Source of the DNA: an uncultured Ruminococcus sp.
GTDB taxonomy: Bacteria; Bacillota; Clostridia; Oscillospirales; CAG-272
Length of the DNA stretch: 64,000 bases
Direction: 5' to 3'
NCBI GenBank assembly: GCA_964441695.1
Contig: CAYYKO010000001.1
Coordinates: 26,781 to 90,780 of the forward strand
Made by a program: the position numbers and the translations under genes. Positions 383 to 56,296 of this stretch are shown in pieces. Numbering within the stretch: the first letter of the stretch is position 1; the number at the start of each line of letters is the position of its first letter. The notes beneath the pieces were generated by a model, which had not been told where the DNA came from, did no database searches, and worked only from the letters and a program-made list of their open reading frames with translations.

Positions 383-477
383 CTTTGTTCCTCCGTGCTT
401 ATATTTGAATATATTTTACCCTAAATTGCGGGAAAAATCAAGTGCATGTGCCACGACTCCCGCGGAAAGGCTTTTTT

Positions 478-2139
478 ATGAAGAATTATAAGGATAAAAC
501 CGTCAGTGCCAAGGTAAGGCTTGCCGTGTGGCTGTGCCTTTCGGCAGTATTTGTCGCGGGCGCGTTTTACGTTACGTTGCCTGCTCTCAATATCCACGCG
601 GGCGAGCTCTGGCGCTTTGTGTTTATTTGCGCTGCCTTTATTGCGGGCGGTGATATCGTGATAAACGGGCTGCTGCCCGAGAACGCGTCCGCGCCGACGC
701 CGACAAAGCGCGCGCTGTCACGCCTGCCGAAAAGATTGAGGCTTGCGCTCATCGCGGCGGCTGTGCTCCTGTGCGTGCTGATAATTCTCGGCATATTCTC
801 GTCGCAGCTTCTCCGCTCCGGCTCGTACAGCTCAATGATCGAGCTGAAGGAGCTTGGCTTTTCCGACGCCATCGAGGAAAGCGAGCATGTGTCCGACATC
901 GCACTGATGGATTCAGCCTCCGCTGTGATAATCGGAAACAGAACGCTCGGCTCGCTGTCCGACCTTGTGTCACAGTTCACGATAGCCGAGGATTACACGC
1001 AGATCGCGCTGAACGGTACGCCGACCAAGGTTGCGCCGCTCGAATACGCCTCGTTTTTCAAGTGGCTCGGCAACCGCCGCGACGGAATTCCGGGCTATGT
1101 AAAGGTAGACCCCGTCGGCTTTGACGCGGAATTCGTAAGGCTCCCTGACGGCGAGTACATTAAATATTCGCCCTCTGCGTACTTCGGAAAGAAGCTTGAG
1201 CGCGCGCTCCGCTTTGCCTATCCGTTTGAAATCTTCGGAAATATAAGCTTCGAGACCGACGAGAGCGGCAGACCGTATTGGATATGCCAAACGCTCGAGC
1301 CGCGGGCGGGCTTCTTCGGCGGCTATGACGTGTCGGGCGCTGTCGTTTTCGACGCCGCGACCGGCGAGAGCGAATACTATGAGACAGGCAGCGTGCCCGA
1401 ATGGGTTGATATTGTATACGACGGCGACCTGATCTGCCGAAAATACGACTGGTACGGCTCGCTGTCGGGAGGATACTTCAATTATATGTTCTCTCAGACG
1501 GGGTGCAGTGCGACCACAGAGGACTTCGGCTACAAGATAATCGGCAATGACGTGTACATATACACCGGTGTCACCTCGCTGTCGAATGACGAGGCGAATA
1601 TCGGCTTTATTCTCGTCAATTCGAGAACCGGCGAGTACAGCTACATTGCACTTCCCGGAGCCGAGGAATTTTCCGCAATGGCGTCAGCCGAGGGCGCGCT
1701 TCAGCAATACGGCTACGAGGCGTCTTTCCCCTCGCTTGTAAATATTTGCGGCGAGCCGACGTACATTATGGTGCTGAAGGACGCGAGCGGCATTGTCAAG
1801 ATGTACGCTATGGTAAACGTGCGGAATTACAACACGGTCGTTACGGCGGACAGCCAAGAGGAGCTGCTTGAGAGGTATATCGCAGCCGCGAAGCTCGAGA
1901 GCACACCGAGCCGCGAGGAAGCGGATACGGCGAGTGTTGAGCTTGTCGTGAAGGAGCGCTATATCATCACCGAGGGCGGAGAAAGCGTTGTTTATCTGCT
2001 TTGCGAGGATGATGCAATATGCTCGCTTCCGTTTTCACCGGAGCTTTTGCGCGTGGACGGCGGAGACAGGATCTCCCTAAGCTATATCGACGAGACAGAC
2101 GGCATCTACAACGGCGTGTCGTTTGAGGTGCTTGAATAA
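478..2139 (+). CDS. membrane-anchored protein of unknown function (two N-terminal TM segments, large extracytoplasmic domain)
   Basis: Long ORF. I chose the internal ATG at 478 (MKNYKDK...). Hydrophobic stretches are LAVWLCLSAVFVAGAFYV and LALIAAAVLLCVLIILGIF. I recognise no catalytic motif. Confidence 0.55.
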   Translation: MKNYKDKTVSAKVRLAVWLCLSAVFVAGAFYVTLPALNIHAGELWRFVFICAAFIAGGDIVINGLLPENASAPTPTKRALSRLPKRLRLALIAAAVLLCVLIILGIFSSQLLRSGSYSSMIELKELGFSDAIEESEHVSDIALMDSASAVIIGNRTLGSLSDLVSQFTIAEDYTQIALNGTPTKVAPLEYASFFKWLGNRRDGIPGYVKVDPVGFDAEFVRLPDGEYIKYSPSAYFGKKLERALRFAYPFEIFGNISFETDESGRPYWICQTLEPRAGFFGGYDVSGAVVFDAATGESEYYETGSVPEWVDIVYDGDLICRKYDWYGSLSGGYFNYMFSQTGCSATTEDFGYKIIGNDVYIYTGVTSLSNDEANIGFILVNSRTGEYSYIALPGAEEFSAMASAEGALQQYGYEASFPSLVNICGEPTYIMVLKDASGIVKMYAMVNVRNYNTVVTADSQEELLERYIAAAKLESTPSREEADTASVELVVKERYIITEGGESVVYLLCEDDAICSLPFSPELLRVDGGDRISLSYIDETDGIYNGVSFEVLE

Positions 2140-9028: not shown

Positions 9029-9068
9029 AAATGCTCCCGACGCTGCACTCAGCGTCGGGAGCATTTTT
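9029..9068. terminator. bidirectional intrinsic terminator
   Basis: 16-bp perfect stem (9029-9044 pairs with 9051-9066) with T-runs on both strands. It lies between convergent stops at 9006 (+) and 9085 (-). Confidence 0.8.
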
Positions 9069-9084: not shown

Positions 9085-11313
9085 TTAAGACTCCGTATTC
9101 TTTTTCGGGGACATTCTTGACATCTGGCGCTGAGCCATGACAAGCTCGTAATATATTCCGCGCTTTTTCATCAGCTCATCGTGCGAATCGAATTCCGCGA
9201 GATGCCCACGGTCGAGCACGAGTATCTTGTCCGCATTCCGAAGCGTGGACAGACGGTGCGCTATGGCAAGCGTTGTTCTGTTTCGTGTCAGGCGGTAGAG
9301 GACGTCCTGAACCTCCTTCTCGGTCTCGGTATCAAGCGCCGAGGTCGCCTCGTCAAGGATGAGTATCTTCGGGTCGCGGAGCAGTGCGCGGGCTATTGCC
9401 ACACGCTGACGCTCGCCTCCCGAGAGGCTGTAGCCGCGCTCTCCGACCTTTGTGGAGTAGCCGTCCGGCAGCTTTACGATAAACTTGTGTGCGCCGGCAA
9501 GCTTGGCACAGGCGATGACCTCCTCGTCGGTCGCGTCGGGGCGCGCGTAGCGGATATTTTCGTATATTGTACCGGAGAAAAGATATGTCTCCTGGAGCAC
9601 GACGCCTATCTGACTGCGAAGGGATTCCTGAGAGATGTCGCGTATGTCGTGACCGTCTATCTTAATGCAGCCCGCAACCGGGTCGTAAAGACGCATGACA
9701 AGATTGATGAGCGTGGACTTTCCGACGCCGCTTCTGCCGACGATGCCTATCATCTCGCCCTTCTTAACCGTTGCTGTGAGGTCCTTTATGACGGGATTCG
9801 TGATATCGTAAGCGAAGCTCACGTTCTCGAAGCTGATCTCGCCGTCAAGCTCGACGTCGCATGCGTCGGGGCTGTCGACTATCTCGTTTTCCTCATCGAG
9901 GATGTCGAATATTTTGGCAATCGACGTTCCCGTGCGCGAAATGATATTCGGAATACGCGAGATCCAGCTCAGCGGACCGTAGATGATTCCGACGTAAGCC
10001 GAGAACTTCGACATTTCACCGAAGGTCATCGTGCCGCCGAGGATGCGGTTTCCGACGTAATACATGATGAAAAATTCGCCGATGCCGAGCAGGAAGCCGA
10101 GCAGGGGCATTACCGTTCCGGCGAAGGATTCCGACATGATATGCACGTCACGCTCGCGCTCGGTAACGTCGCGGTGGCGGCGGATCTCCTTTTTCTCCAT
10201 TCCGAAGGACTTAACGACGCGGATGCCTGAGAAGGTGTCGTGAAGCACCGAGTTTGCCTTCGAGGAGACGACCCACGAGAGGTGATACAGCTTGTGCATT
10301 ACGCGGCGCGTGAATCTGTTAATGAAAACGATGAGCGGCACGGGACAGAGCACGAGCAGCGCGAGTCGCACGTCGTAGACGAAGAGTATCGTGCCGACGG
10401 CAACGAGCGTTACCACCATCTGAAGCATCTCGCCGAGCTCGTTGACGATAAAGTTATTTACCGTGTCGCAGTCGGAAGAAACTCTGTTGATAAGCTCACC
10501 GGAGGTGCGCGCGTTGATACGTGAGATGGAGAGTGACTGTATCTTATCGAAGGTCAGCTGACGCAGTCGTGTGATGAAGCCCGCGCCCGCATCGACAAGC
10601 AGCAGCGAGCGGACGGCGGATATGAGGAGGCTTAACAAATTGACTGCGAAAAGCGACAGGATAACTCCGATAAAGCCCGCAAGGGCGGGATTCTTCGCCT
10701 GAATGTAATTGTCGACGAGAATTCTGTTGAGCTCCGGCGGAATGAGCGTTACCGCGGAGGCGACAAAGTAGAGAAGCACCGAAAGAAGTATCATCCACTT
10801 CCACGGGGAGGCAAGCTTTATAAGGCGCTTTATATACGAGCTCTTGCCGGTGCATTTCGCGCAGACCTCGCTGCCGGGGGAATACGGTCTGCCGCACACG
10901 GGGCACGCGTTGCCCATCGGGTATTCTCTGACACAAACATTATTTCCCTCGGCAAGGAGAGTCAGGTCGCCGACCGCGGCGGTGAACACCTTCGCGTAAA
11001 GCTCGCTTGCGCGGCACAGCAGTCGCGTTGTGCCGTCCTTGTATTTTACCTCGATCTGCCGACAGCCGATGCCCGGCACGACGGAAAGCTCATCAATGTC
11101 GAGCAGGGGAAGCGTGAGAAGCAGCTGCCCGTTCTCGATAACAAATATGCTGTCGTCGCTTGCGGAAACGATGCCGCGACAGCTTTTGCCGCCCTCGACG
11201 ACGCGCGGGAGGTCAAAGGGGAATATGACACGAAGGCACGCGCCGTCGCTCGGCGAGGAGAGACTAAGCGCACATTCGGTCAGCTCTTGTATACTGTACA
11301 TCTGTTGCTCCAA
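9085..11313 (-). CDS. ABC exporter half-transporter (TMD-NBD) with about 170-aa cytoplasmic N-terminal extension ending in a Cys4 zinc ribbon
   Basis: Walker A GRSGVGKST, signature LSGGERQR and Walker B ILILDEATS. Six-TM type-I exporter core. The N-terminal part has CPVCGRPYSPGSEVCAKC just before the first TM (WKWMILLSVLLYFVASAV). Confidence 0.85.
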   Translation of the reverse strand: MEQQMYSIQELTECALSLSSPSDGACLRVIFPFDLPRVVEGGKSCRGIVSASDDSIFVIENGQLLLTLPLLDIDELSVVPGIGCRQIEVKYKDGTTRLLCRASELYAKVFTAAVGDLTLLAEGNNVCVREYPMGNACPVCGRPYSPGSEVCAKCTGKSSYIKRLIKLASPWKWMILLSVLLYFVASAVTLIPPELNRILVDNYIQAKNPALAGFIGVILSLFAVNLLSLLISAVRSLLLVDAGAGFITRLRQLTFDKIQSLSISRINARTSGELINRVSSDCDTVNNFIVNELGEMLQMVVTLVAVGTILFVYDVRLALLVLCPVPLIVFINRFTRRVMHKLYHLSWVVSSKANSVLHDTFSGIRVVKSFGMEKKEIRRHRDVTERERDVHIMSESFAGTVMPLLGFLLGIGEFFIMYYVGNRILGGTMTFGEMSKFSAYVGIIYGPLSWISRIPNIISRTGTSIAKIFDILDEENEIVDSPDACDVELDGEISFENVSFAYDITNPVIKDLTATVKKGEMIGIVGRSGVGKSTLINLVMRLYDPVAGCIKIDGHDIRDISQESLRSQIGVVLQETYLFSGTIYENIRYARPDATDEEVIACAKLAGAHKFIVKLPDGYSTKVGERGYSLSGGERQRVAIARALLRDPKILILDEATSALDTETEKEVQDVLYRLTRNRTTLAIAHRLSTLRNADKILVLDRGHLAEFDSHDELMKKRGIYYELVMAQRQMSRMSPKKNTES

Positions 11314-11326
11314 TCTAAAACGTCGC

Positions 11327-11857
11327 TCAGACGTAAAGCTCTATGCGGCGTCGCGTCTTCGCGTCGAGCGTGTCAAACGGCGCGAGCTCGTAGCGGTTGC
11401 TGTCAATGTCGTTGACTGTTATTCTACCGTCGCTTCCCGTGCGGATGCTGTTGTGAGCATCGCGAACGGTGAAGCTCACCTCGCCGTCGTCGGACAGCGC
11501 GCGCCAGTACGAAAAGCCGAAGCGCTCGCGAACGGAAATGACGGACTTGAGGTGACATATGTAGTATTTTTTTTTCAGCTCCGACTCGAGAAGCTGCTGT
11601 GTTTGCTCGGGGAATATGTCGAGCTTCTTTATTATTCCGATTTCGACCTTGTCCTCGTCGAGCACGGAAATGTACTCCTCGCGCTTGTCAAAGGGGAAGA
11701 GTCTGTGGAGGGAGGTCTTGCCGACGCTTCTTTTTTCGCCGTTGTGCTCTACTGTCACTGAGAGAAAGTCTCCGCTTTTCGAGAAGGCGCAGTTTTCGGG
11801 CGAGAGATAGAGTATTCCCGCAGCATCAAGAAGCTCGGATTCGTTATGTGCTTTCAT
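11327..11857 (-). CDS. DUF1854-family protein (unknown function)
   Basis: 176 aa, soluble. The C-terminal pattern ...ITVNDIDSNRYELAPFDTLDAKTRRRIELYV and the size fit my recollection of DUF1854. It is sandwiched between the two ABC genes with 13-nt and 30-nt gaps. Confidence 0.6.
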   Translation of the reverse strand: MKAHNESELLDAAGILYLSPENCAFSKSGDFLSVTVEHNGEKRSVGKTSLHRLFPFDKREEYISVLDEDKVEIGIIKKLDIFPEQTQQLLESELKKKYYICHLKSVISVRERFGFSYWRALSDDGEVSFTVRDAHNSIRTGSDGRITVNDIDSNRYELAPFDTLDAKTRRRIELYV

Positions 11858-11887
11858 ATTATCGTTCCTTTCATTGACCGTCGGGGG

Positions 11888-14302
11888 TCATTCCTCGACG
11901 CCGACGTTTTTGAGTGCGGCGAGCTGGAGTGAATAAAGCTTGAAATATTCGCCGCGGCGGCGGATGAGCTCCTCATGCGAGCCGCTTTCGCAGATTTTTC
12001 CGTCCTTGAGCACTATAAGCTCGTCCGCCATGCGTAGCGTGGAAAGACGGTGCGCTATCATTATCGTGGTCTTGCCCTCGATGAGAATTTCGAGAGCGGT
12101 CTGTATCTTGCGCTCGGTCTGCGTATCCATTGCCGCCGTTGCCTCGTCGAGAATGAGTATCGACGGGTCGCGAAGCAGCGCACGTGCTATCGAAAGACGC
12201 TGACGCTCGCCTCCGGAGAGCTCGCGCTGACCGAAGCCTATCATCGTTGAGTAGCCGTCGGGCAGCTTTACGATAAAGTCGTGAGCTCCCGAAATCTTTG
12301 CCGCGCGGATGACCTCGTCAAGCTCGGCGTCGGGGCGCGCGTAGCGGATATTGTCGAGTATCGAGCCGACAAAGAGGTAGGTTTCCTGCGAAACTATCGC
12401 GATGCTGCGGCGGAGCGTGTCGAAGGAAATGCTCTTGAGCGGCACACCGTCGATGGATATCTCGCCGCTCGTGGCGTCGTACATACGCATAAGGAGGTTT
12501 GCAAGTGTCGATTTTCCGGCTCCCGTGTGTCCGACGACGCCGAGAATGCTGCCGTGCGGAATATTAAAGTTGATGTCGCGCAGCACAAGACGCGAGGCGT
12601 CGTAGCCGAAGTCGACGCGGTCAAAGCGAATGTCGCCCTTAAGCTGCTCGAGCTGCACCGGATTTTCAACCTCGGTGACATCGGGCTCGGCGTCCATTAT
12701 CTCAACAAGGCGATTCATCGCGTTGAGGCTGTCCGTTGCCTGGTACGACATATGCACGAACTGCTGCATGGGGTTGTATATCATTGCCGTGTACGCCGTG
12801 AAGGTCATCAGATCACCGTAGTCGAGCGTGCCGCTGATGACCATCCGACCGCCGATGCCGAGCACGAGAAGGTTCGACACGGTCATGATGATATTGATGA
12901 GCGGGAAACGTGTTGTGCCGTAGCGCGAAGCCGTTCTGTCGGCTTCAGCGGCGTAGCGGTTGACCTTTTCGAAGCGGTCGGAGCCGTCCTTTTCGCGGGA
13001 GAAGGCCTTAACCACGCGCATGCCCGAGAAGGTGTCGCTGACGAGCGAATTAAGCTTGCGCGCGCCGACCCAGCGCATCCCGTGGTATTTTCCCATTGAG
13101 GAGAAGATAAACTTCATGAATATGAAGATGAACGGCACCATCGCGAGATAGGTGATCGCAAGCGACGTGTTTATCGTGAGCATGATGACGGCGACGGAAA
13201 TTATCTGCACCACGTTCACAAGGAAATACGGTATTCCCTCGGTGAAGAACCAGTATATGGTGCTCGAGTCACGCGTGACCTGCGTCATCATTGAGCCGGT
13301 CTGATTGTCGGTGAAATATTTCAGCGACAGCTTCTCTATCGACTCAAAAATAACATTCTTAAGGTCGAAGCGAAGATGTGCGGCAATGCGGTTGCTGACG
13401 ACGTTATTAAGTATCGTAACACCCGTTGAAAGCAGCTTCGTTACGGCGATGAGTATCAGCACGAAGATGAGCTGACCGTAATATTTGCCGCCGACGGTGA
13501 GCACCTGATCGTAGTAGAAGCCGGAGCTGATGTAGGGGGAGATGATACCGAGCGCGCTGGTGAGGATAAGTATGCCGATGGTGGCGATAACGCGGAAGCG
13601 ATACTTGAGCACGAAGCTCATGATGCGGGAGATTATTTTTCCCTTGTCCATGCAGTGGAGACATACTCGGCGGTGCGGATCGGAATATCTCTTACCGCAC
13701 TTTGGGCAGAACATCGGTCCCTTGCTCGAGTATTTTCCTTTTTCGCGCTTGCCGCCGGGTCCTCCGGGACCTCCGGGTCTGCCGGGTCTGCCGGGACCGC
13801 CCGGACCTCCGGGACCGAAATGCGGTGCATTCTCACGGTCGTGCGGGACACAGTCGCCGTCGGACAGATGGCGTGCAAGCTCTGCAAGCTCCTCCTTCAT
13901 TGTGTTTGTCGAGGCAGCGACAACACAGGCGCGACCGTTGTCGAGCGTTCCGACGAGAAGGGCAGTCGATATCTGCTCCTCGTAGGAGAACGAAGCAAAG
14001 CGGTCTCTGTCAAACTCGTTGAGCTCGAGAATTTCGAAGCTTTCCTCGGGATGCCTTTTTTTGAATATCGGGCGCTTCCTGCCGCTCAGTGTGAGCGAGC
14101 CCGAAACTGTCAGTATTTTGTCCTTCGTTACCGCCGTGTACGATTCACAGCGCACCTGCGACACCGAAAAATCCGTTACGGCAAAGTGCTCAAGCTGCTC
14201 CTCGCGTATTCCGTGCTCTGCGAGAATGCCGAGCAGATGGTGCGGTATGGGCGGCTTTTCGGGCGGACGGCGCCCGTCTTCCGTCATTTTCTCTTTCTTC
14301 AT
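11888..14302 (-). CDS. ABC exporter half-transporter (TMD-NBD) with about 230-aa N-terminal extension, Gly/Pro linker and Cys4 zinc ribbon
   Basis: Walker A GHTGAGKST, LSGGERQR and ILILDEATA. The N-terminus contains FGPGGPGGPGRPGRPGGPGGPGG, then CPKCGKRYSDPHRRVCLHC, ahead of the first TM. GAGGA RBS before ATG 14302. Confidence 0.85.
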   Translation of the reverse strand: MKKEKMTEDGRRPPEKPPIPHHLLGILAEHGIREEQLEHFAVTDFSVSQVRCESYTAVTKDKILTVSGSLTLSGRKRPIFKKRHPEESFEILELNEFDRDRFASFSYEEQISTALLVGTLDNGRACVVAASTNTMKEELAELARHLSDGDCVPHDRENAPHFGPGGPGGPGRPGRPGGPGGPGGKREKGKYSSKGPMFCPKCGKRYSDPHRRVCLHCMDKGKIISRIMSFVLKYRFRVIATIGILILTSALGIISPYISSGFYYDQVLTVGGKYYGQLIFVLILIAVTKLLSTGVTILNNVVSNRIAAHLRFDLKNVIFESIEKLSLKYFTDNQTGSMMTQVTRDSSTIYWFFTEGIPYFLVNVVQIISVAVIMLTINTSLAITYLAMVPFIFIFMKFIFSSMGKYHGMRWVGARKLNSLVSDTFSGMRVVKAFSREKDGSDRFEKVNRYAAEADRTASRYGTTRFPLINIIMTVSNLLVLGIGGRMVISGTLDYGDLMTFTAYTAMIYNPMQQFVHMSYQATDSLNAMNRLVEIMDAEPDVTEVENPVQLEQLKGDIRFDRVDFGYDASRLVLRDINFNIPHGSILGVVGHTGAGKSTLANLLMRMYDATSGEISIDGVPLKSISFDTLRRSIAIVSQETYLFVGSILDNIRYARPDAELDEVIRAAKISGAHDFIVKLPDGYSTMIGFGQRELSGGERQRLSIARALLRDPSILILDEATAAMDTQTERKIQTALEILIEGKTTIMIAHRLSTLRMADELIVLKDGKICESGSHEELIRRRGEYFKLYSLQLAALKNVGVEE
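13751..13819 (-). repeat. Gly-Pro coding microrepeat (includes tandem CCGGGTCTG x2)
   Basis: CCGGGTCTG occurs at 13773-13781 and 13782-13790, within a run of CC(G/T)GG(A/G)(C/T)C units that encode (GPG/GRP)n. Confidence 0.8.
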
Positions 14303-14357: not shown

Positions 14358-14486
14358 GCGTAAATCGTATGGAGATACCTTTAACAATGAGTAAATTTTA
14401 CCGCCTGCCTTTTCAAGCTGTCATAAAAAATATCTTAAAACGTATAATTTTACAGCGAAAAAGGTTTATTTTCGGAGGTGTATGAT

Positions 14487-15737: not shown

Positions 15738-15848
15738 ATAGGTGTACAGATACAAACATCACCGGAGAGTGCGCTACCGTCGCAAATTTGATGTCTCCGG
15801 AGGCAACCCGGAGTATATCCCGGCAGCTTGTCGGAAAGCAAGGATACT

Positions 15849-17198
15849 ATGGCACTTAAGCTCAAAACAAATTACCTTAAGAATTTCATCGACCTCGAGG
15901 AGGGTCACAGCGAGCTTGAAAAGATCTCGCATATCACAAAGGCGGCAACAGCTCTTGTTCGCGAGGGCACGGGCGCGGGCAACGCGTTCCTCGGCTGGCA
16001 CGACCTTCCCGTCAATTACGATAAGGAGGAGTTTGCACGCATTCTCGCGGCAGCTGAGAAGATCCGCAAGACCTGCTCGGTATTTATCGTTGTCGGCATA
16101 GGCGGCTCCTACCTCGGCGCACGCGCTGCTATCGAATTTGTTAAGTCTCCCCTTTACAACAGCTTCAGAGGCGACGCTCCCGCAGTATATTTCGCGGGCA
16201 ACAGCATCAGCCCCTCGGCACTTGCCGACATCGTTAAGCTCTGCGAGGGTGAGGATGTATGCATCAACGTAATTTCGAAGTCCGGTACAACGACCGAGCC
16301 CGCAGTTACCTTCAGAATTCTCAGAAAGCTTCTCGAGGATAAGTACGGCGAGGAGGGTGCGCGCGAGCGTATCTTCGTTACGACCGACCGTCAGCGCGGA
16401 AAGCTCAAGGAGTTCTCCACTGAGAAGGGCTACGAGACCTTCGTCGTTCCCGACGATATCGGCGGACGCTTCTCCGTTCTTACGGCGGTAGGTCTGCTCC
16501 CGATCGCGGTTGCGGGACTTGACATTAACGAAATGATGCGCGGTGCGGCTGACGCACGTGAGGAATACCTCTCCGATGACCCGATGACAAACAACGCGCT
16601 CGTTTACGCGGCACTTCGCAATATTCTCTATAACAAGGGCAAGAGCCTCGAGGTTCTTGTAGCATACGAGCCCTCTCTCACAATGATCTGCGAGTCTTGG
16701 AAGCAGCTCTACAGCTAGACCGAGGGCAAGGACGGAACGGGTCTGTTCCCCGCATCCGTCATCTGCTCGACAGACCTTCACTCTCTCGGTCAGTACATTC
16801 AGGAGGGAAGACGCACTATGTTCGAGACGCTTATCTCCTTTGCCGAGTCCAATGACACGGTGGAGATACCCGACGACCCGAACAACATCGACGGACTCAA
16901 CTTCCTCTCCGGCAAGGATCTGCATTACGTCAACACGATGGCAATGACCGGAACGCTTCTCGCGCACAACGACGGCGGTGTTCCGAATATCGTCATCGAG
17001 CTGCCCCGCCGCGATGAATATTCCTTCGGTAATCTCGTATATTTCTTCGAGCTTGCCTGCGCGGTATCGGGCTACATGCTCGGCGTAAACCCGTTCGACC
17101 AGCCGGGTGTCGAGGCGTACAAGAAGAATATGTACGCACTCCTCGGCAAGCCGGGCTTTGAATCTGAAAAAGAGGCTTTGGAAGCCAGAATAAACTAA
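15849..17198 (+). pseudogene. pgi: glucose-6-phosphate isomerase interrupted by one in-frame TAG (16716-16718)
   Basis: Track ORFs 15828-16718 and 16818-17198 are in the same frame. Read-through gives a 449-codon Firmicute-type PGI ([57 protein letters not shown]). The TAG is the only lesion. Confidence 0.85.
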
Positions 17199-44918: not shown

Positions 44919-44936
44919 TTGAATGTGAGGCAGACG

Positions 44937-47900
44937 ATGGGCGAGGCACGAAAGACCCTTTACGACCGCTTCGGCAGGTATGACCCGGTCGGAATACACC
45001 GCGTAATATACGATAAAGCAGTCGTCTCTTCGGTAAAGCTTGACCGCGAGAGGCGCATAGTTGAGCTTGCCGTTGAATTGCCGGAGCTTTTCGATAAGAC
45101 AGACATTTATTCTCTTGAGGAGGCACTGTGCGCGGCTTATGAGCTGCGCCTTGTGCGTATTTTGACAAAATATCCGAGCGAGTGCTTCGACATGTCGTAC
45201 CTTCCGCAGGTCATTCTCGAGGCGCGTCGCGTCGGCAGCGTTGTCAACGGCTTTTTCAGTCACATGAAGACCTCCTTGGACGGCGACAGTATACATATCG
45301 CGATACCGTTCTCGGCGGGAGCCATCGAGCTTCACGATATGGCGCACACCGCAGCTGTCATATCGAACATTATTGCAAGCGAGTTCGGACTCAGATTTAA
45401 TGTGAAAATAGAGCAGACGGAGGATGCCGACGCCAGATACGCCGAGCACGTCAGCCGACAGCTCGCCGAGCTCAACACACGCTCGCAGAGCATTGCCGCG
45501 GCTGAGGAAAGGCGAATGGCGTCCGCTGCCGCAGCTCAAAGCGGCGAGGCGGCACCCGTCGAGGAGACTGTGAAGCTTCCACGGGCATATTCGCTCTTTG
45601 AGGGCTCGGACACCGTTTCGCGCGATACCGATAACGAGAATATCATCATCTCCGGCAGAATGCGCTTTGACAGCTCGACGATCGAGGTGCTTTTGGGGCA
45701 TGATCCGTCGCTTGATGAGCTCATCCCGCTTCGCGCCGTAAAGAGCGTCGGACGCGGAGTCAGCATTATCGGAGAGGTCTTTGCCGTGACCGAAAAGGAG
45801 ACGCGCCGCGGCGATAAGCTCACCGTGACCGTCGGCATTACCGACCGCGACGCGTCGCTGTTTATAAAGTCAACGGTCGACCCCGAGGGCGCCGAGGAGC
45901 TGAAGTCGATGTTCGGCGTCGGAAAATCGGTGATAGTCAAGGGAAATATCAAGGCGGACAGCTTTGACGGCGAGCTGTTTATGCAGTACAGTGAGGTCGC
46001 GCAGATAGAGCGCGTGCTTCGCGAGGATAACGCCCCCGAAAAGCGCGTTGAGCTTCACGCGCATACCAATATGTCGGCAATGGACGCGCTGACAAAGCCC
46101 GATGAGCTTGTTAAAACAGCCGCGCGCTGGGGTCACGGGGCGGTAGCCGTGACAGACCACGGAAACCTGCAAAGCTTTCCGATAGCGATGCTCACCGCGG
46201 AAAAGCTCGGCGGCAAGGTCAAGGTGCTATACGGCGTTGAGGCATACTTTGTCGACGATACGCAAAGAGCCGCATACCGTGGGGAAGGGATCACCTTCGA
46301 CGACGAATTTGCGGTGTTCGATATCGAGACGACGGGTCTTTCCGCGGCGACCTGCGCTATTACGGAGATAGGCGCGGTCATCATCAAAAAGGGCGAGATA
46401 CTTGACCGCTTCAATACCTTCGTCAATCCCGGTGTGCCGATACCGGAGAAGATAACTCAGCTGACGGGAATTACCGACGAAATGGTCGCCGACGCACCCG
46501 ATATCTCCGAGGTGCTGCCGCGCTTTTTCGAGTTCTGCGGTGATCGGATGCTCGTCGCGCACAATGCCTCGTTCGATACGAGCTTCATAAGAGCAGCCGC
46601 CGAAAGGTGCGGACTGCCCTTCGTCAGTCCCTATCTAGACACGGTCGCCATGTCGCATTATGTAAACCCGACGGCGAAAAATCATAAGCTCGACACGCTC
46701 GCGCAGCTGTACGGGCTCGGCGACTTCAACCATCACCGCGCCTGTGACGACGCGGAGATGCTTGCGCTCATATTTGACAAGATGACATCACGCCTCAAGG
46801 AGGAGGGCATCTTAGACATTGACAGAATGAATTACGTGATGAGTGAGAGGGCAGACCCCTTGAAGCTCCGCACGTATCACCAGATAATACTCGTTAAGAA
46901 CAAGACAGGGCTTAAGAACCTGTACAAGCTCGTTTCCGATTCGTACCTCAAATATTATAAGCGTAATCCGCGCATACCGAAGACGCGACTTACCGAGCTT
47001 CGCGAGGGACTTATAATCGGCTCCGCCTGCGAGGCGGGTGAGCTTTTTCGAGCGATGCTCGACAACCGTCCCGAGGACGAGCTTATCGAGATGGCGTCTT
47101 TCTACGATTATCTTGAGATACAGCCGATATGCAACAACATGTTCCTTGTCGCCGAGGGTAAGGTCGCGGACGAGGAGGGACTTCGCGAGCTCAACCGACG
47201 CATTATAGACATCGGTAAAAAGGCGGGACGCCCTGTTGTCGCGACCTGCGACGCGCATTACCTCGACCCGGAGGACGAGATATACCGAAGGATACTCCTT
47301 GCGGGAATGAAGTTTAAGGACGCAGACCACGAAACAAAGCTTTATTACCGCACGACCGAGGAAATGCTCGCGGAATTCGAGTACCTCGGCGAGCAGACCG
47401 CCCGTGAGGTCGTAATAACGAATCCGAGACGTATTGCCGACATGATAGAGACCGTGCGTCCGATACCCGAGGGCAACTATCCGCCGCATATTGACGGCGC
47501 CGAGGAGGAGCTGACAGAAAAGTGCCACGCCCTCGCGCGCGAAATGTACGGAGACGTGCCGCCCGAGGAGGTAACGAGCCGCCTTGACCGCGAGCTTGAT
47601 TCGATAATCAAAAACGGCTTCGCCATCATGTACATAATTGCCCGAAAGCTTGTTGAAAACAGCGAGGCGAAGGGCTATCAGGTAGGCTCGCGAGGCTCTG
47701 TCGGCTCATCCTTTGCGGCAACGATGGCGGGAATTACAAAGGTAAATCCGCTGCCGCCGCACTACAGATGCCTCAAGTGTAAGTATTCGGATTTCCACGA
47801 CTTCAAGACGGAGCAGCCCGACGTTAAATCGGGCTTTGACCTGGCGCCGAAGAAGTGCCCCGTATGCGGAGAGGAGCTGTACCGCGACGGACACGACATC

Positions 47901-49364
47901 CCATTTGAGACCTTCCTCGGCTTCTACGGAGACAAGGTGCCCGATATCGATCTTAACTTTTCCGGAGACGTTCAGGCGGACGCGCACAAGTTCACCGAGG
48001 TGCTCTTTGGCACGGGCAAAGCCTTCCGCGCCGGTACCATCGGTACTCTTGCCGCAAAGACCGCCTACGGCTTCGTCGCGCGCTATCTCGAGGAGCGCGG
48101 AATTTCCGTCAACCGCGCCGAAAGCGAGCGGCTGATCGCCGGCTGCGTCGGAGTCAAGCGCACCACGGGTCAGCATCCGGGAGGAATAATCGTTGTTCCC
48201 GCAGAGCACGACGTGTACGAGTTCTGCCCCGTGCAGCACCCCGCCGACGACCCGAATTCCTCGATAATCACGACTCACTTCGAGTTCAAGTATCTGCACG
48301 ACACGATACTGAAGCTCGATATACTCGGACACGATATTCCGACTAAGTACAAGCGACTTGAAGAATATTCCGGAATGAACATCCTCGACGTGCCGCTGTC
48401 CGACCCGCAGGTGTACAAGCTCTTTACGTCGACCGAGCCGCTCGGAGTCACGCCTCAGCAGATAAACAGCGAGACCGGCACGCTCGGACTGCCCGAGATG
48501 GGTACGAAGTTCATCAGAGGCGTGCTTATGGCTGCACAGCCGAAGACCTTTGCCGACCTCTTGCAGATATCGGGGCTCACCCACGGCACGGGAGTCTGGC
48601 TCGGAAATGCGGACGAGCTTATCAAAAACAACGTCTGCACGATATCCGACGTTATCGGGTGCCGTGACGATATCATGCTTTACCTGATCCAAAAGCACGA
48701 CCTTGATAAGAGCCACGCGTTCAAGATAATGGAGGACGTGCGAAAGGGAAAGGGGCTCAAGCCCGAGTACGAGCAGGAAATGCGCGAGCACGGCGTGCCC
48801 GATTGGTACATCGAGTCGTGCAAGAAGATAAAATACATGTTCCCGAAGGCGCACGCGGCAGCATATGTTATGGACGCGCTGCGACTCGGCTGGTATAAGA
48901 TATATCACCCGGACGTTTTCTACGCCGCGTACTTTACCGCCGCGCCGTCAGGCTTTGACGCCGAGATAGTAATGGGCGGCAAGGAGCGCGTCGCCGCCGT
49001 CATCAAGGAATATTCGCGCCCCGGTGCCGAGCTGTCGCAGAAGGAAGCAGACACGCTCGACGCGCTGAACCTTGTCAATGAGTGCTATCAGCGGGGATAT
49101 TCGTTCCTGCCGGTCGACTTTGCGACCTCGGACGCGCATAAATACGTTCCCGAAAACGGAAAAATACGCCTTCCGCTCGATTCGCTCCCCGGAGTCGGCT
49201 CGGCTGCGGCGGAAAGCATTGTCGCCGCGAGGGAAAGAGGACCGATATATTCGATAGACGACCTGAAGCGCGAGAGCGGAATGTCAAAGTCCGTTCAGGA
49301 GATACTTGAGCGAAACGGCGTCCTGAAGGAGCTCTCGCGCACTAACCAGCTTACAATGTTTTAG
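44937..49364 (+). CDS. polC: DNA polymerase III alpha subunit, PolC type
   Basis: About 1475 aa. It has a PHP domain (ELHAHTNMSAMDA), an inserted DEDD exonuclease (FDIETTGLS, HNASFD, HRACDDA), a Zn finger (CLKC...CPVCG) and the polymerase core. TAG stop. Confidence 0.95.
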   Translation: MGEARKTLYDRFGRYDPVGIHRVIYDKAVVSSVKLDRERRIVELAVELPELFDKTDIYSLEEALCAAYELRLVRILTKYPSECFDMSYLPQVILEARRVGSVVNGFFSHMKTSLDGDSIHIAIPFSAGAIELHDMAHTAAVISNIIASEFGLRFNVKIEQTEDADARYAEHVSRQLAELNTRSQSIAAAEERRMASAAAAQSGEAAPVEETVKLPRAYSLFEGSDTVSRDTDNENIIISGRMRFDSSTIEVLLGHDPSLDELIPLRAVKSVGRGVSIIGEVFAVTEKETRRGDKLTVTVGITDRDASLFIKSTVDPEGAEELKSMFGVGKSVIVKGNIKADSFDGELFMQYSEVAQIERVLREDNAPEKRVELHAHTNMSAMDALTKPDELVKTAARWGHGAVAVTDHGNLQSFPIAMLTAEKLGGKVKVLYGVEAYFVDDTQRAAYRGEGITFDDEFAVFDIETTGLSAATCAITEIGAVIIKKGEILDRFNTFVNPGVPIPEKITQLTGITDEMVADAPDISEVLPRFFEFCGDRMLVAHNASFDTSFIRAAAERCGLPFVSPYLDTVAMSHYVNPTAKNHKLDTLAQLYGLGDFNHHRACDDAEMLALIFDKMTSRLKEEGILDIDRMNYVMSERADPLKLRTYHQIILVKNKTGLKNLYKLVSDSYLKYYKRNPRIPKTRLTELREGLIIGSACEAGELFRAMLDNRPEDELIEMASFYDYLEIQPICNNMFLVAEGKVADEEGLRELNRRIIDIGKKAGRPVVATCDAHYLDPEDEIYRRILLAGMKFKDADHETKLYYRTTEEMLAEFEYLGEQTAREVVITNPRRIADMIETVRPIPEGNYPPHIDGAEEELTEKCHALAREMYGDVPPEEVTSRLDRELDSIIKNGFAIMYIIARKLVENSEAKGYQVGSRGSVGSSFAATMAGITKVNPLPPHYRCLKCKYSDFHDFKTEQPDVKSGFDLAPKKCPVCGEELYRDGHDIPFETFLGFYGDKVPDIDLNFSGDVQADAHKFTEVLFGTGKAFRAGTIGTLAAKTAYGFVARYLEERGISVNRAESERLIAGCVGVKRTTGQHPGGIIVVPAEHDVYEFCPVQHPADDPNSSIITTHFEFKYLHDTILKLDILGHDIPTKYKRLEEYSGMNILDVPLSDPQVYKLFTSTEPLGVTPQQINSETGTLGLPEMGTKFIRGVLMAAQPKTFADLLQISGLTHGTGVWLGNADELIKNNVCTISDVIGCRDDIMLYLIQKHDLDKSHAFKIMEDVRKGKGLKPEYEQEMREHGVPDWYIESCKKIKYMFPKAHAAAYVMDALRLGWYKIYHPDVFYAAYFTAAPSGFDAEIVMGGKERVAAVIKEYSRPGAELSQKEADTLDALNLVNECYQRGYSFLPVDFATSDAHKYVPENGKIRLPLDSLPGVGSAAAESIVAARERGPIYSIDDLKRESGMSKSVQEILERNGVLKELSRTNQLTMF

Positions 49365-55064: not shown

Positions 55065-56047
55065 TGATACAGACAATAGCTTCGTTCATAACAGCTGCTA
55101 TAATTCAGAGCATTCCTCTTCTTTACGGCGCGACGGGCGAGATAATTACCGAGAAGAGCGGAAACCTCAACCTCGGTATCCCCGGAATCATGTACGTCGG
55201 CGGAATATCGGGAATTATCGGCGCGTTCCTGTACGAGAACTCGATGGAAAATCCGACAGCCTTCTGGTGCATCATAATTCCACTGCTTTCGACGCTCATC
55301 GGCGCGGGACTTATGGCGCTCATCTACAGCTTCCTTACAATTACCCTCCGTGCAAACCAGAACGTAACGGGACTTGCACTCACGACCTTCGGTATCGGAA
55401 TCGGTAATTTCTTCGGCGGCTCGCTTCTCAAGCTCTTCGGTCAGAGCGGCTCGATCTCGCTCCTTACAACAGGTAATTATTATAAGACAAAGCTCCCGTT
55501 TGCCGATAAGCTCGGGCTTTTCGGAGAGACCTTCCTTTCCTTTGGCTTTTTGGTGTATCTTGCAATAATCGTCGCTGTTGTGGCGTCGATATTCCTGAAG
55601 CGCACGCGCGCGGGACTGAATCTCCGCGCGGTCGGTGAGAACCCCGCCACAGCGGACGCTGCCGGCATTAACGTAACAAAGCACAAGTATCTCGCTACCG
55701 TTATCGGCGGCGCGATATCCGGACTCGGCGGTCTGTATTTCGTAATGGACTACACAGCGGGCGCATGGACGAACAACGGCTTCGGCGACCGTGGCTGGCT
55801 TGCGATAGCGATCGTTATTTTCGCACTGTGGAAGCCCTCGTCGGCGATACTCAGTTCGTTTTTGTTCGGCGGACTTTACATTATTTGCGTGTACATCCCC
55901 GGACTTTCCGGAGCCGCAAAGGAGCTTATAAAGATGCTGCCTTATGTGGTAACGATAATCGTGCTTGTATTCACGAGCGCAAGAAAGCGCCGCGAGCATC
56001 AACCTCCGGCACACCTCGGACTTTCGTATTTCCGAGAGGACAGATAA
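55064..56047 (+). CDS. ABC transporter permease
   Basis: Polytopic paralogue of the previous permease. The junction is a TAATG stop/start overlap. Confidence 0.85.
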   Translation: MIQTIASFITAAIIQSIPLLYGATGEIITEKSGNLNLGIPGIMYVGGISGIIGAFLYENSMENPTAFWCIIIPLLSTLIGAGLMALIYSFLTITLRANQNVTGLALTTFGIGIGNFFGGSLLKLFGQSGSISLLTTGNYYKTKLPFADKLGLFGETFLSFGFLVYLAIIVAVVASIFLKRTRAGLNLRAVGENPATADAAGINVTKHKYLATVIGGAISGLGGLYFVMDYTAGAWTNNGFGDRGWLAIAIVIFALWKPSSAILSSFLFGGLYIICVYIPGLSGAAKELIKMLPYVVTIIVLVFTSARKRREHQPPAHLGLSYFREDR

Positions 56048-56142
56048 CAGCAATTGCCGCGGCGCGCCGACACAAAAGGAGTGCCGCGGCAAATCAAATG
56101 AAGAAATTTCTGCCCGAAATGCGAATTTCCGCAAAAAGCTAT

Positions 56143-56170
56143 TGAAATTCAAGCGGAAATATGGTATAAT
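56143..56170 (+). promoter_or_regulatory. sigma-A-type promoter for tRNA-Ser
   Basis: TTGAAA (56143-56148), 16 nt spacer, TATAAT (56165-56170). Confidence 0.6.
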
Positions 56171-56210
56171 AATATGCGTCGGTAAACACATTGCCGCGAA
56201 AACAGAATAC

Positions 56211-56296
56211 GGAGAGATATCGAAGTGGTCATAACGGGGCTGACTCGAAATCAGTTTGCGAGCAATCGCACGAGGGTTCGAATCCCTCTCTCTCCG
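56211..56296 (+). tRNA. tRNA-Ser (anticodon CGA), class II with long variable arm; CCA not encoded
   Basis: Hand-folded. Acceptor GGAGAGA/TCTCTCC. T-arm GAGGG-TTCGAAT-CCCTC. Anticodon stem GCTGA/TCAGT with loop CTCGAAA. 5-bp variable stem TGCGA/TCGCA. Confidence 0.85.

What the first reader, a model, noticed from the sequence alone, without database searches (positions are those of the whole stretch)
9085..14302. ABC half-transporter / DUF1854 / ABC half-transporter operon with zinc-ribbon N-terminal modules
Two paralogous TMD-NBD exporters (804 and 742 aa) flank a 176-aa DUF1854-like soluble protein, with gaps of 30 and 13 nt. This implies one transcript and probably one complex.

Both transporters carry long cytoplasmic extensions before TM1, which ordinary heterodimeric exporters lack:
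- The 742-aa protein has about 170 extra residues ending in CPVC-x11-CAKC.
- The 804-aa protein has about 230 extra residues with a (GPG/GRP)n linker, then CPKC-x11-CLHC.

Two Cys4 ribbons placed right at the membrane entry, together with a dedicated small soluble partner, suggest a regulated or substrate-presenting assembly. I know of no functional description for this arrangement.
Basis: partly seen in the sequence, partly recalled or inferred. Interest (0 to 1): 0.6.

Follow-up and report, generated by a model that had tools for sequence, protein, structure and literature searches.

The report
ABC exporter pair with DUF1854 subunit
A three-gene operon in a gut Clostridia bacterium encodes two related ABC export pumps and a small partner protein (DUF1854); it is a two-pump variant of a widespread but barely studied pump family whose members all carry a PH-like domain plus a zinc ribbon at their cytoplasmic entrance, and its cargo is still unknown.

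Summary
Three co-directional minus-strand genes lie between a promoter-like site and a strong terminator: ABC-A (804 aa), DUF1854 (176 aa; PF08909, E=6.5e-29) and ABC-B (738 aa from the likelier ATG). The N-terminal extensions are not mis-called starts. They are conserved in about 80 Clostridia loci and are under purifying selection, and all four ribbon cysteines are invariant.

New here: the extensions are homologous to each other (hhalign 97.5%). ABC-B's extension models confidently as a PH-like domain followed by the Cys4 ribbon and the elbow helix.

The arrangement is not undescribed. DUF1854 was already proposed as an ABC-transporter subunit (Price et al.), and NCBIfam has "cyanophycin metabolism-associated" ABC and DUF1854 models. 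A Ralstonia cphA-cphA'-ABC-DUF1854 locus carries the same N-module. Natural fusions, including ABC-A::DUF1854 followed by ABC-B, place DUF1854 at the C-terminus of NBD-A.

The window's proteins score below the NCBIfam cutoffs. No cphA, conserved neighbour or small ORF accompanies the cassette. Both ATP sites are canonical.

Best reading: a three-subunit heterodimeric exporter of this family whose PH-like/zinc-ribbon modules and DUF1854 recruit or gate a cytoplasmic substrate. The substrate is unknown. This is a new variant of a known kind, of moderate interest.

The parts
14395..14424 (-). Sigma-70-like promoter candidate upstream of ABC-A (ATGACA, 18 nt spacer, TAAAAT)
   Evidence: Consensus scan, 10 of 12 matches. 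This is a pattern match only. No riboswitch or leader RNA was found.
11888..14302 (-). ABC-A: 804-aa half-transporter with the order PH-like domain, G/P linker, Cys4 ribbon, TMD, NBD
   Evidence: ORF. PF00664 covers residues 242-512 and PF00005 covers 574-723. Best NCBIfam hit is NF052233 at 465 bits, below the 880 cutoff. The orthologue in a close relative is called at 798 aa.
13853..14260 (-). ABC-A N-terminal beta-rich domain (residues 15-150), inferred to be PH-like
   Evidence: hhalign against the ABC-B N-domain profile gives probability 97.5%, E = 6e-12. dN/dS = 0.06 against L001. Translation verified. This domain was not modelled directly.
13754..13819 (-). Low-complexity G/P-rich linker FGPGGPGGPGRPGRPGGPGGPG
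   Evidence: Translation. Present in only 4 of 63 ABC-A orthologues, while similar tracts occur at the N-terminus of 10 of 78 DUF1854 orthologues.
13652..13708 (-). ABC-A Cys4 zinc ribbon, CPKC-x11-CLHC
   Evidence: Translation. All four Cys are invariant in 63 of 63 orthologues. dN = 0 against L001.
11327..11857 (-). DUF1854 protein, 176 aa, cytoplasmic third subunit
   Evidence: PF08909 E = 6.5e-29. NF052234 gives 58.9 bits, below the 150 cutoff. The AF2 model has pLDDT 81 and shows two beta modules, each capped by a helix. No PDB match by fold or by sequence. In natural fusions it sits after the NBD.
9085..11301 (-). ABC-B: 738-aa half-transporter (742 aa if started at the TTG at 11313) with the order PH-like domain, Cys4 ribbon, TMD, NBD
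   Evidence: ORF. The start is argued from the GGAG ribosome-binding site and the 738-aa gene call in a relative. PF00664 and PF00005 match. NF052233 gives 523 bits, below the 880 cutoff. It is 36% identical to ABC-A from the ribbon onward.
10927..11301 (-). ABC-B N-terminal PH-like domain (residues 1-125)
   Evidence: AF2 model with pLDDT 86.4 and pTM 0.77: seven strands followed by a C-terminal helix. Foldseek top hits are all PH, PTB or FERM-F3 domains at probability 1.00, including bacterial PH 3dcx at TM 0.66. No Pfam family matches.
10852..10905 (-). ABC-B Cys4 zinc ribbon, CPVC-x10-CAKC, directly before the elbow helix and TM1
   Evidence: Translation. The four Cys are invariant in 75 of 75 ribbon-bearing orthologues, and the ribbon is absent in 5 of 80. 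Weak zinc-ribbon matches in Pfam and to bL32, DUF35 and anti-TRAP in the PDB.
9029..9066 (-). Intrinsic terminator: 17-bp GC-rich hairpin followed by a U-rich tail
   Evidence: Terminator scan. Fold dG = -37 kcal/mol, z = -7.2.

Best explanation
The three genes form one operon that encodes one cytoplasmic-membrane machine. ABC-A and ABC-B pair as a heterodimeric type-IV (ABCB-like) exporter with two catalytically competent ATP sites. Each half carries a PH-like domain at its cytoplasmic N-terminus, joined by a Cys4 zinc ribbon directly to the elbow helix and TM1. DUF1854 is a soluble third subunit that docks at the C-terminal end of NBD-A.

The machine is a duplicated, heterodimeric branch of the DUF1854-partnered exporter family. 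The beta-proteobacterial members of that family are linked genetically and by cofitness to cyanophycin-synthetase-like enzymes.

Inferred mechanism:
1. The PH-like/ribbon modules sit beside the cytoplasmic entrance of the transmembrane domains.
2. Together with DUF1854 they recognise or hand over a substrate made in the cytoplasm. This is most plausibly a peptide-like or poly-amino-acid polymer.
3. They couple that recognition to ATP-driven export.

Shown: operon structure, domain architecture, family relationship, and physical linkage of DUF1854 to the transporter.
Inferred: heterodimer formation, the substrate-recruiting role of the modules, the direction of transport, and the class of substrate.
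For: Operon:
- Gaps of 30 nt and 13-25 nt, each gene with its own ribosome-binding site.
- Promoter-like site and strong terminator.

Exporter fold:
- Full-length PF00664 plus PF00005 matches in both halves.
- Canonical Walker A, Q-loop, LSGGE signature, Walker B D-E and H-loop motifs in 63 of 63 ABC-A orthologues and in 72-76 of 72-76 alignable ABC-B orthologues.

Obligate trio:
- The A-D-B order holds in 75 of 80 Clostridia loci. Four are cut by contig ends and one lacks ABC-A.
- No other gene is conserved nearby.

DUF1854 as a subunit:
- The fusion proteins P0094 and P0180 have the order PH-like, ribbon, TMD, NBD, DUF1854.
- In L088 (Clostridium sp. Marseille-P299), an A-type ABC::DUF1854 fusion is followed directly by a B-type ABC.
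- Price et al. report cofitness of DUF1854, the ABC transporter and cphA/cphA'.

N-modules are real and shared across the family:
- Conservation and invariant cysteines; dN/dS 0-0.19.
- The A and B modules are homologous.
- PH-like fold.
- The same module is present in the Ralstonia cphA-linked ABC: ribbon at residue 141, HMM E = 3e-9.
- The module profile hits 2,704 cluster representatives, always at the N-terminus of proteins of about 710-970 aa.

Precedent:
- PH-domain proteins are required for ABC-dependent export of a cytoplasmic peptide (PMC8657885).
Against: - No substrate gene is linked. There is no cphA, cphB or other conserved neighbour in the window or in the 80 loci, and no conserved small ORF.
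- The window proteins fall well below the NCBIfam equivalog cutoffs that the Ralstonia pair passes. Function may therefore have diverged.
- Heterodimer formation is inferred only from gene linkage and the fusion. Both ATP sites are canonical, so two homodimers are not excluded biochemically.
- One locus (L045) has DUF1854 and ABC-B without an adjacent ABC-A.
- Five lineages lost the ABC-B ribbon, so that element is not strictly essential.
- DUF1854's fold has no match, and no complex model could be computed.
- The substrate-recruiting role rests on analogy, not on data.
Confidence: 0.6

Rival explanations
1. Regulatory modules rather than substrate handlers. The transporter exports a generic substrate such as a lipid, drug or metabolite. 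The PH-like/ribbon modules and DUF1854 act as a cytoplasmic sensor or brake that tunes ATPase activity in response to a signal such as a lipid head group, a nucleotide or redox/zinc status. Comparable cases (from general knowledge) are the regulatory domains of MalK and MetN and the FHA modules of Rv1747.
For: - PH-like folds often bind lipids or regulatory ligands; the fold hits include GRK2, Sin1 and Sac2 PH domains.
- The cassette has no linked biosynthetic gene.
- The ribbon sits at the membrane interface next to the elbow helix.
- The B-type module carries a semi-conserved Cys pair.
Against: - In beta-proteobacteria the homologous pair is tightly linked to and cofit with dedicated polymer synthetases. 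This argues for a dedicated substrate rather than generic efflux.
- PH-like domains evolve faster than the core (dN 0.35-0.67 against 0.12-0.23). That is more typical of partner- or substrate-specific surfaces.
- No ligand-binding motif was identified.
Confidence: 0.22
2. Same function as the beta-proteobacterial system. The cassette exports a cyanophycin-like polymer made by a CphA encoded elsewhere in the genome.
For: - NF052233 and NF052234 are the best NCBIfam hits for all three proteins.
- The N-module and DUF1854 are shared with the Ralstonia cphA-linked locus.
- Price et al. provide cofitness data.
Against: - Scores are far below the equivalog cutoffs: 465 and 523 against 880, and 58.9 against 150. 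The Ralstonia pair scores 1460 and 234.
- No CphA-like protein is encoded in the 64-kb window or within about 9 kb of any of the 80 loci.
- No cyanophycinase-like genes were found among the window ORFs scanned.
- Whole genomes could not be searched.
Confidence: 0.15
3. Two independent homodimeric transporters, A2 and B2, that merely share an operon and possibly share DUF1854.
For: - Both halves have fully canonical ATP sites, so each could work as a homodimer.
- The family includes single-gene homodimeric forms (Ralstonia L081; lone fusion L087).
- L045 has DUF1854 plus ABC-B without an adjacent ABC-A.
Against: - The two paralogues are retained together, in a fixed order around a single DUF1854 gene, in 75 of 76 informative loci despite only 36% identity.
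- The A::DUF1854 fusion followed by B keeps a 1:1:1 gene dosage.
- The losses are asymmetric: the ribbon is lost only in B.
- From general knowledge, adjacent half-transporter pairs in Firmicutes are typically heterodimers.
Confidence: 0.1
4. The N-terminal extensions are artefacts of mis-called start codons.
For: Only the first four codons of ABC-B are doubtful: TTG at 11313 against ATG at 11301.
Against: - The extensions are present in all complete orthologues.
- The cysteines are invariant.
- dN/dS is 0-0.19.
- AF2 gives a confident fold.
- Independent gene calls give 798 and 738 aa.
Confidence: 0.01

Closest known systems
Cyanophycin metabolism-associated ABC transporter and DUF1854 protein (NCBIfam NF052233 and NF052234). 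This is the beta-proteobacterial system of Price et al. (bioRxiv 10.1101/072470), for example Ralstonia wenshanensis CP076412.1 KOL96_03340 and KOL96_03345.
   Same: - Same domain plan in the transporter: PH-like region, Cys4 ribbon, TMD, NBD.
- A DUF1854 gene lies immediately downstream.
- These models are the best NCBIfam hits for all three window proteins.
   Different: - The known system has one ABC gene (a presumed homodimer) next to cphA/cphA'.
- The window has two diverged paralogues flanking DUF1854, and no cphA nearby.
- The window proteins score below the equivalog cutoffs.
ABC exporters with N-terminal cytoplasmic cargo-docking domains: PCAT1-type C39 peptidase domains and the HlyB C39-like domain (from general knowledge; related NCBIfam models appear lower).
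   Same: - Type-IV exporter core.
- An extra cytoplasmic domain is fused immediately before TM1.
- In these known systems that domain binds the cargo and presents it to the transmembrane entrance.
   Different: - The domain here is PH-like plus a zinc ribbon, not a C39 papain-like fold.
- No leader-peptide substrate gene is linked.
- There is an additional soluble DUF1854 subunit.
PH-domain proteins DdE and DdF, required for ABC-dependent export of the leaderless bacteriocin enterocin DD14 (PMC8657885).
   Same: PH-like domains cooperate with an ABC transporter in a Firmicute to export a product made in the cytoplasm.
   Different: - DdE and DdF are separate proteins that carry PH domains, whereas the window's PH-like modules match no Pfam PH family.
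- They are not fused to the transporter.
- The substrate genes lie in the same cluster.
- There is no DUF1854 and no zinc ribbon.
Heterodimeric Firmicute and Thermotoga ABC exporters: BmrCD, LmrCD, EfrCD, PatAB, TM287/288 (from general knowledge).
   Same: Two adjacent, co-transcribed TMD-NBD half-transporter genes of the ABCB-like type.
   Different: - Those pairs have one degenerate ATP site and no N-terminal domains or third subunit.
- Here both sites are canonical in all orthologues.
- Each half carries a module of about 130-230 residues, and DUF1854 is present as well.
Wzm/Wzt O-antigen ABC transporter with a carbohydrate-binding domain on the NBD (from general knowledge).
   Same: The concept is shared: a cytoplasmic accessory domain attached to the NBD end recognises a finished polymer before export. 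DUF1854 sits after the NBD in the natural fusions.
   Different: - Different transporter class (type V).
- Different accessory fold.
- A glycan substrate with linked biosynthesis genes.

Membership tests
Type-IV (ABCB-like) ABC exporter half-transporter | Six-helix ABC_membrane TMD (PF00664) fused to an ABC_tran NBD (PF00005) | tested here: met
   Both proteins match: PF00664 E = 1.4e-32 and 1.8e-42 (near full length); PF00005 E = 2.2e-31 and 1.5e-35.
Type-IV (ABCB-like) ABC exporter half-transporter | Catalytic motifs present: Walker A Lys, Q-loop, LSGGQ-type signature, Walker B D-E, H-loop His | tested here: met
   Both halves are canonical in the window and in 63 ABC-A and 72-76 ABC-B orthologues.
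DUF1854 (Pfam PF08909) | Score above the Pfam gathering threshold | tested here: met
   100.9 bits against a cutoff of 26.8, E = 6.5e-29, covering profile positions 6-128 of 130.
DUF1854-partnered ABC exporter family (broad sense) | A DUF1854 gene adjacent to, or fused with, an ABC exporter that carries an N-terminal PH-like domain plus Cys4 ribbon | tested here: met
   Seen in the window, in 80 Clostridia loci, in Ralstonia L081 and in the fusions P0094 and P0180.
NCBIfam NF052233, cyanophycin metabolism-associated ABC transporter (equivalog) | Whole-protein score of at least 880 bits | tested here: not met
   ABC-A scores 465.5 bits and ABC-B 523.4 bits, aligned only from profile position 138. 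The positive control, Ralstonia ABC, scores 1460 bits.
NCBIfam NF052234, cyanophycin metabolism-associated DUF1854 protein (equivalog) | Whole-protein score of at least 150 bits | tested here: not met
   58.9 bits. The Ralstonia control scores 234.2 bits.
Cyanophycin-associated export system (Price et al.) | Genomic linkage to cphA/cphA' | tested here: not met
   No CphA-like ORF in the 64-kb window or in the 80 loci with about 9 kb of flank each (phmmer with the Ralstonia CphA proteins). Neighbours are unrelated housekeeping genes. The rest of the genome could not be tested.
Cyanophycin-associated export system (Price et al.) | Mutant cofitness with the synthetases, or actual export of a polymer | not testable with these tools
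   This needs genetics and biochemistry. Only the published beta-proteobacterial data exist.
Heterodimeric ABC exporters with one degenerate ATP site (BmrCD and TM287/288 type) | Non-canonical Walker B Glu, H-loop or signature motif in one half | tested here: not met
   Both halves keep D-E, His and LSGGE in all orthologues.
PH-like fold superfamily (N-terminal module) | Seven-stranded beta-sandwich capped by a C-terminal helix, with structural similarity to PH/PTB domains | tested here: met
   The ABC-B module AF2 model has pLDDT 86.4 and pTM 0.77 with the expected topology. The Foldseek top 50 are PH, PTB and FERM-F3 domains at probability about 1.0, with target-normalised TM up to 0.66. For ABC-A the assignment is inferred through hhalign at 97.5%. 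No Pfam PH family matches by sequence.
Zinc ribbon | Two CxxC knuckles 10-11 residues apart, with similarity to known ribbons and actual zinc binding | tested here: inconclusive
   The motif is invariant. Pfam Zn_Ribbon_1 and DZR hits are sub-threshold. PDB profile hits to bL32 and DUF35 reach only E = 0.002-0.007. Model confidence in this segment is moderate, pLDDT 58-75. Metal binding was not tested.
PCAT/HlyB-type exporters with an N-terminal C39 or C39-like domain | Peptidase_C39-like N-terminal domain | tested here: not met
   No C39 hit in Pfam. The N-module fold is PH-like.

The most novel reading that the evidence does not exclude
The PH-like domain, Cys4 ribbon and DUF1854 together define a distinct and very widespread class of ABC exporters (about 2,700 clusters at 50% identity) with its own cytoplasmic cargo-loading apparatus. 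The Clostridial heterodimeric branch, including this operon, has become uncoupled from cyanophycin synthetases. It exports a different, still unknown cytoplasmic polymer or peptide of gut and rumen Oscillospirales. DUF1854 bridges NBD-A and the two non-equivalent PH-like modules to select the cargo.
Probability: 0.3. Interest if true: 0.7.

Novelty: new variant of a known kind. Interest (0 to 1): 0.45.

Why it matters
DUF1854-partnered exporters are abundant: the N-module profile alone hits about 2,700 cluster representatives. Yet no member has a solved structure, a known substrate or a described mechanism. The only functional clue is cofitness with cyanophycin-synthetase-like genes in two beta-proteobacteria.

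This work adds three things:
- Every branch shares a PH-like-plus-zinc-ribbon entrance module.
- DUF1854 is tethered behind the NBD in natural fusions.
- Gut and rumen Clostridia carry a duplicated A/B version with two active ATP sites and no linked synthetase.

Together these give a concrete architecture that can be tested by AlphaFold-Multimer, cryo-EM and genetics. They also caution against transferring the "cyanophycin-associated" label to the Clostridial proteins. If the modules prove to be cargo-loading devices, this would be a third solution for feeding cytoplasmic polymers or peptides into ABC exporters, alongside C39-type domains and Wzt-type carbohydrate-binding domains.

Tried and rejected
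- Mis-called starts: rejected on conservation, dN/dS and independent gene calls.
- N-modules related to DUF1854, or DUF1854 as an internal duplication: hhalign probabilities are at most 1.4% for every pairing.
- A Pfam family for the N-module: none. Ten modules gave only sub-threshold zinc-ribbon hits.
- Solved structures for DUF1854: no sequence hit with a single sequence or a profile, and no significant Foldseek hit (TM at most 0.24).
- Conserved neighbours that might point to a substrate: none. The best is IleRS in 10 of 80 loci.
- CphA in the window or the loci: none. Other cyanophycin genes in the window: none among the ORFs scanned.
- A conserved small ORF that could encode a peptide cargo: none beyond close relatives.
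- A riboswitch or leader RNA: none.
- tblastn of DUF1854 against plasmids: no hit. The full ABC-B query did find the Ralstonia locus.
- H26 (Rhizobium, L082): an unrelated type I secretion-like locus, dropped.
- The indexed protein search with the N-module alone: one hit only.
- Exact look-up of the window's DUF1854 protein: not on record.
- Antisense ORFs across the operon: no family hits, so they are shadow frames.
Full report
**1. What is in the sequence**

Three co-directional ORFs lie on the minus strand at the stated coordinates:
- ABC-A: 14302..11888, 804 aa.
- A 176-aa protein: 11857..11327.
- ABC-B: 11313..9085, 742 aa if started at the TTG.

The gaps are 30 nt and 13 nt. Each gene has its own Shine-Dalgarno-like sequence. 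For ABC-B, the GGAG sits 6 nt before the ATG at 11301, and the TTG lies inside that ribosome-binding site. An independent gene caller gives 738 aa for the orthologue in a near-identical Ruminococcus sp. MAG. The real start is therefore probably 11301.

A promoter-like site lies at 14424..14395. A 17-bp GC-rich hairpin with a U-rich tail at 9066..9029 brackets the other end of the unit. The hairpin folds at -37 kcal/mol with z = -7.2. No Rfam element occurs in the leader or the operon. The long antisense ORFs have no family support.

The flanking genes are all on the other strand and unrelated: pth, mfd and an SLH-domain protein on one side, and a PBP5-type D-Ala-D-Ala carboxypeptidase, pgi and a GH106-like gene on the other. 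Two small corrections apply: the ABC-B start, and its ribbon, which is CPVC-x10-CAKC rather than x11.

**2. Family assignment**

Both large proteins are TMD-NBD half-transporters with PF00664 and PF00005. The middle protein is DUF1854 (PF08909; 100.9 bits against a cutoff of 26.8).

The two transporters are 36% identical, and the BLAST alignment starts exactly at the Cys4 motif. Both carry canonical Walker A, Q-loop, LSGGE, Walker B D-E and H-loop motifs. These motifs are almost invariant across 63 ABC-A and 72-76 ABC-B orthologues. Neither ATP site is degenerate. This differs from the classic Firmicute heterodimers such as BmrCD or TM287/288 (general knowledge).

In NCBIfam the best hits are NF052233, "cyanophycin metabolism-associated ABC transporter", and NF052234, "cyanophycin metabolism-associated DUF1854 family protein". 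The scores are far below the curated cutoffs: 465 and 523 against 880, and 58.9 against 150.

**3. The extensions are real**

A genome scan with a DUF1854 alignment returned 80 loci. All come from Clostridia gut or rumen MAGs, including Ruminococcus, Acutalibacteraceae, Apopatosoma and Flemingiibacterium. This sample is biased towards relatives of the window, because it is the best 80 of 110 hits.

- 75 loci show ABC-A (745-945 aa), DUF1854 (170-243 aa) and ABC-B (714-774 aa) in that order on one strand.
- 4 loci are cut by contig ends.
- 1 locus (L045) has DUF1854 and ABC-B but no ABC-A within 9 kb.

All four ribbon cysteines are invariant in 63 of 63 ABC-A and in 75 of 75 ribbon-bearing ABC-B proteins. 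Five ABC-B orthologues have lost the ribbon but kept the preceding domain.

dN/dS against the closest relative:

| Segment | dN/dS |
|---|---|
| ABC-A N-domain | 0.06 |
| ABC-A linker | 0.04 |
| ABC-A ribbon | 0 |
| ABC-B N-domain | 0.19 |
| ABC-B ribbon | 0.08 |
| TMD-NBD cores | 0.04-0.07 |

The mis-called-start refutation fails.

**4. What the extensions are**

Profile-profile comparison shows the two pre-ribbon domains are homologous (hhalign probability 97.5%, E = 6e-12). Neither is related to DUF1854. The two halves of DUF1854 are not related to each other or to the N-domains. No Pfam family matches the domain in ten diverse examples, and only sub-threshold zinc-ribbon hits cover the Cys4 segment.

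An AF2 model of ABC-B residues 1-162 has pLDDT 86.4 and pTM 0.77. It was built on an 18-sequence alignment. It shows a short helix, seven beta-strands, a long C-terminal helix, the Cys4 segment (pLDDT 58-75), and then the start of the elbow helix.

Foldseek against the PDB returns almost only PH, PTB and FERM-F3 domains at probability about 1.0. Hits include Sin1, GRK2, Rtt106 and CCM2, and the bacterial PH domain 3dcx at target-normalised TM 0.66. The module is therefore a PH-like domain, joined by a zinc ribbon directly to the membrane-proximal elbow helix. For ABC-A this is inferred through homology, not modelled.

The Cys4 profile weakly matches true ribbons (bL32, DUF35, anti-TRAP) in the PDB. 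Zinc binding itself is untested.

**5. DUF1854**

The AF2 model (pLDDT 81, pTM 0.53, built on 14 sequences) shows two beta-rich modules, each ending in a helix. It has no significant structural match (TM at most 0.24) and no sequence match in the PDB. The more sensitive fold libraries were unavailable. Whether these modules are also PH-like remains open. The protein has no hydrophobic segment and should be cytoplasmic (sequence inspection).

**6. Relation to what is known**

Price et al. (bioRxiv 10.1101/072470) found DUF1854 cofit with an adjacent ABC transporter and with cphA/cphA' in Acidovorax and Cupriavidus. They proposed a transporter subunit for export of an amino-acid polymer, and they cite the Pfam curators' note on ABC-DUF1854 fusions. 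It is the only paper in the searched library that mentions DUF1854 or PF08909. No paper combined ABC transporter, zinc ribbon and PH domain.

I recovered an annotated example on a Ralstonia wenshanensis megaplasmid: cphA and cphA, divergent from a 768-aa ABC gene followed by a 156-aa DUF1854 gene.
- Both proteins pass the NCBIfam cutoffs, at 1460 and 234 bits.
- The ABC protein has a Cys4 ribbon at residue 141.
- The Clostridial ABC-B N-module HMM matches its residues 38-159 at E = 3e-9.

The PH-like-plus-ribbon module is thus a hallmark of the whole family, not of this operon. An exhaustive HMMER search with the module profile found 2,704 cluster representatives (739 at E <= 1e-10). The match is always N-terminal, and complete proteins are about 710-970 aa.

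**7. Fusions locate DUF1854**

Two long hits are natural fusions with the order PH-like, ribbon, TMD, NBD, DUF1854.
- P0094 is a lone gene (L087).
- P0180 (WP_066712443.1, Clostridium sp. Marseille-P299) is an A-type ABC::DUF1854 fusion with a linker of about 25 residues. It is followed 18 nt later by a B-type 728-aa ABC that has its own PH-like domain and ribbon.

This reproduces the window's A-D-B order with A and D joined. It argues that DUF1854 sits at the C-terminal end of NBD-A in a 1:1:1 assembly.

**8. What it does not tell us**

No gene other than the three is conserved around the cassette; the best is IleRS in 10 of 80 loci. No CphA-like protein is encoded in the window or in any locus. 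No cyanophycinase-like gene was found among the window ORFs scanned. No small ORF is conserved next to the cassette. The substrate therefore cannot be read from context. The "cyanophycin-associated" label should not be transferred to these proteins.

**9. Most likely mechanism**

Shown:
- One operon.
- Two paralogous exporter halves with active-type ATP sites.
- A conserved cytoplasmic PH-like/ribbon module on each half.
- DUF1854 physically coupled to the transporter family.

Inferred:
- A and B form a heterodimer. The evidence is the fixed linkage, the fusion arrangement and the asymmetric loss of the ribbon.
- The PH-like modules are held by the ribbon at the elbow helix beside the cytoplasmic TMD opening. 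Together with DUF1854 behind NBD-A, they bind or hand over a cytoplasmically made cargo and couple this to ATP-driven export.

The analogies are the C39 and C39-like domains of PCAT and HlyB, the Wzt carbohydrate-binding domain (general knowledge), and the PH-domain proteins DdE and DdF needed for ABC-dependent export of enterocin DD14 (PMC8657885).

My confidence is about 0.85 that this is a three-subunit exporter of the DUF1854-partnered family. It is about 0.6 for the whole statement including a cargo-handling role, and only about 0.15-0.25 that the cargo is cyanophycin-like. The main rival is a purely regulatory role for the modules.

**10. Verdict**

The finding is real and well described. 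Its claim of having no functional description is overstated. This is a new variant, heterodimeric and not linked to cphA, of a known but essentially uncharacterised kind. The fold assignment of the N-module and the fusion-based placement of DUF1854 are useful additions. Interest is moderate (0.45).

Noticed in passing
window 16716-16718 (+), within pgi (15828-17198): The glucose-6-phosphate isomerase gene is interrupted by a single in-frame TAG (...WKQLYS*TEGKDG...). The reading frame is the same before and after the stop. It could be a nonsense mutation, a pseudogene or a sequencing error.
   Followed up: partly
window 13754-13819 (-); loci L052, L058, L060, L065-L068, L070, L074, L079: The G/P-rich tract (FGPGGPGGPGRPGRPGGPGGPG) in the ABC-A linker is rare there, occurring in 4 of 63 orthologues. 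Very similar GGPGGP tracts occur at the N-terminus of DUF1854 in 10 of 78 orthologues, as if the tract moves between subunits. Some ABC-A orthologues instead carry long E/K-rich or G-rich inserts inside the PH-like domain.
   Followed up: partly
L032, L037, L060, L064, L072 (ABC-B orthologues): Five lineages have lost all four ribbon cysteines in ABC-B but retain the PH-like domain. ABC-A never lost its ribbon.
   Followed up: partly
L045:1-9000: This is the one locus with DUF1854 and ABC-B but no ABC-A within 9 kb upstream. It could be a secondary loss, a relocation, or a homodimeric reversion.
   Followed up: partly
window 10927-11301 (-), ABC-B PH-like domain: B-type modules carry a semi-conserved Cys pair. 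The first is in a G-V-G-C motif (C80, 54 of 75) and the second in x-C-R (C96, 52 of 75). The neighbouring G79 and R97 are nearly invariant. A-type modules lack this pair. Its role (metal, redox or structural) is unknown.
   Followed up: no
window 56001-58000: GC content drops to 0.42 against about 0.55 elsewhere in the window. This may be an acquired segment. It was not examined.
   Followed up: no
window 442-2139 (+): A 565-aa ORF with no Pfam match at E <= 1e-5.
   Followed up: no
L081:3025-8306 (Ralstonia wenshanensis plasmid p56D2): The cphA-cphA'-ABC-DUF1854 cluster sits on a 1.8-Mb megaplasmid. Nearby are a beta-lactamase-family gene, glucan biosynthesis protein D and an OXA-60-family carbapenemase.
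   Followed up: no
window 60203-61147 (+) and 44919-49364 (+): SpoIIIAA and PolC are present, and DpaA lies near the cassette in L086. The host is a spore-forming Firmicute, and the window is core chromosome rather than a mobile element.
   Followed up: no
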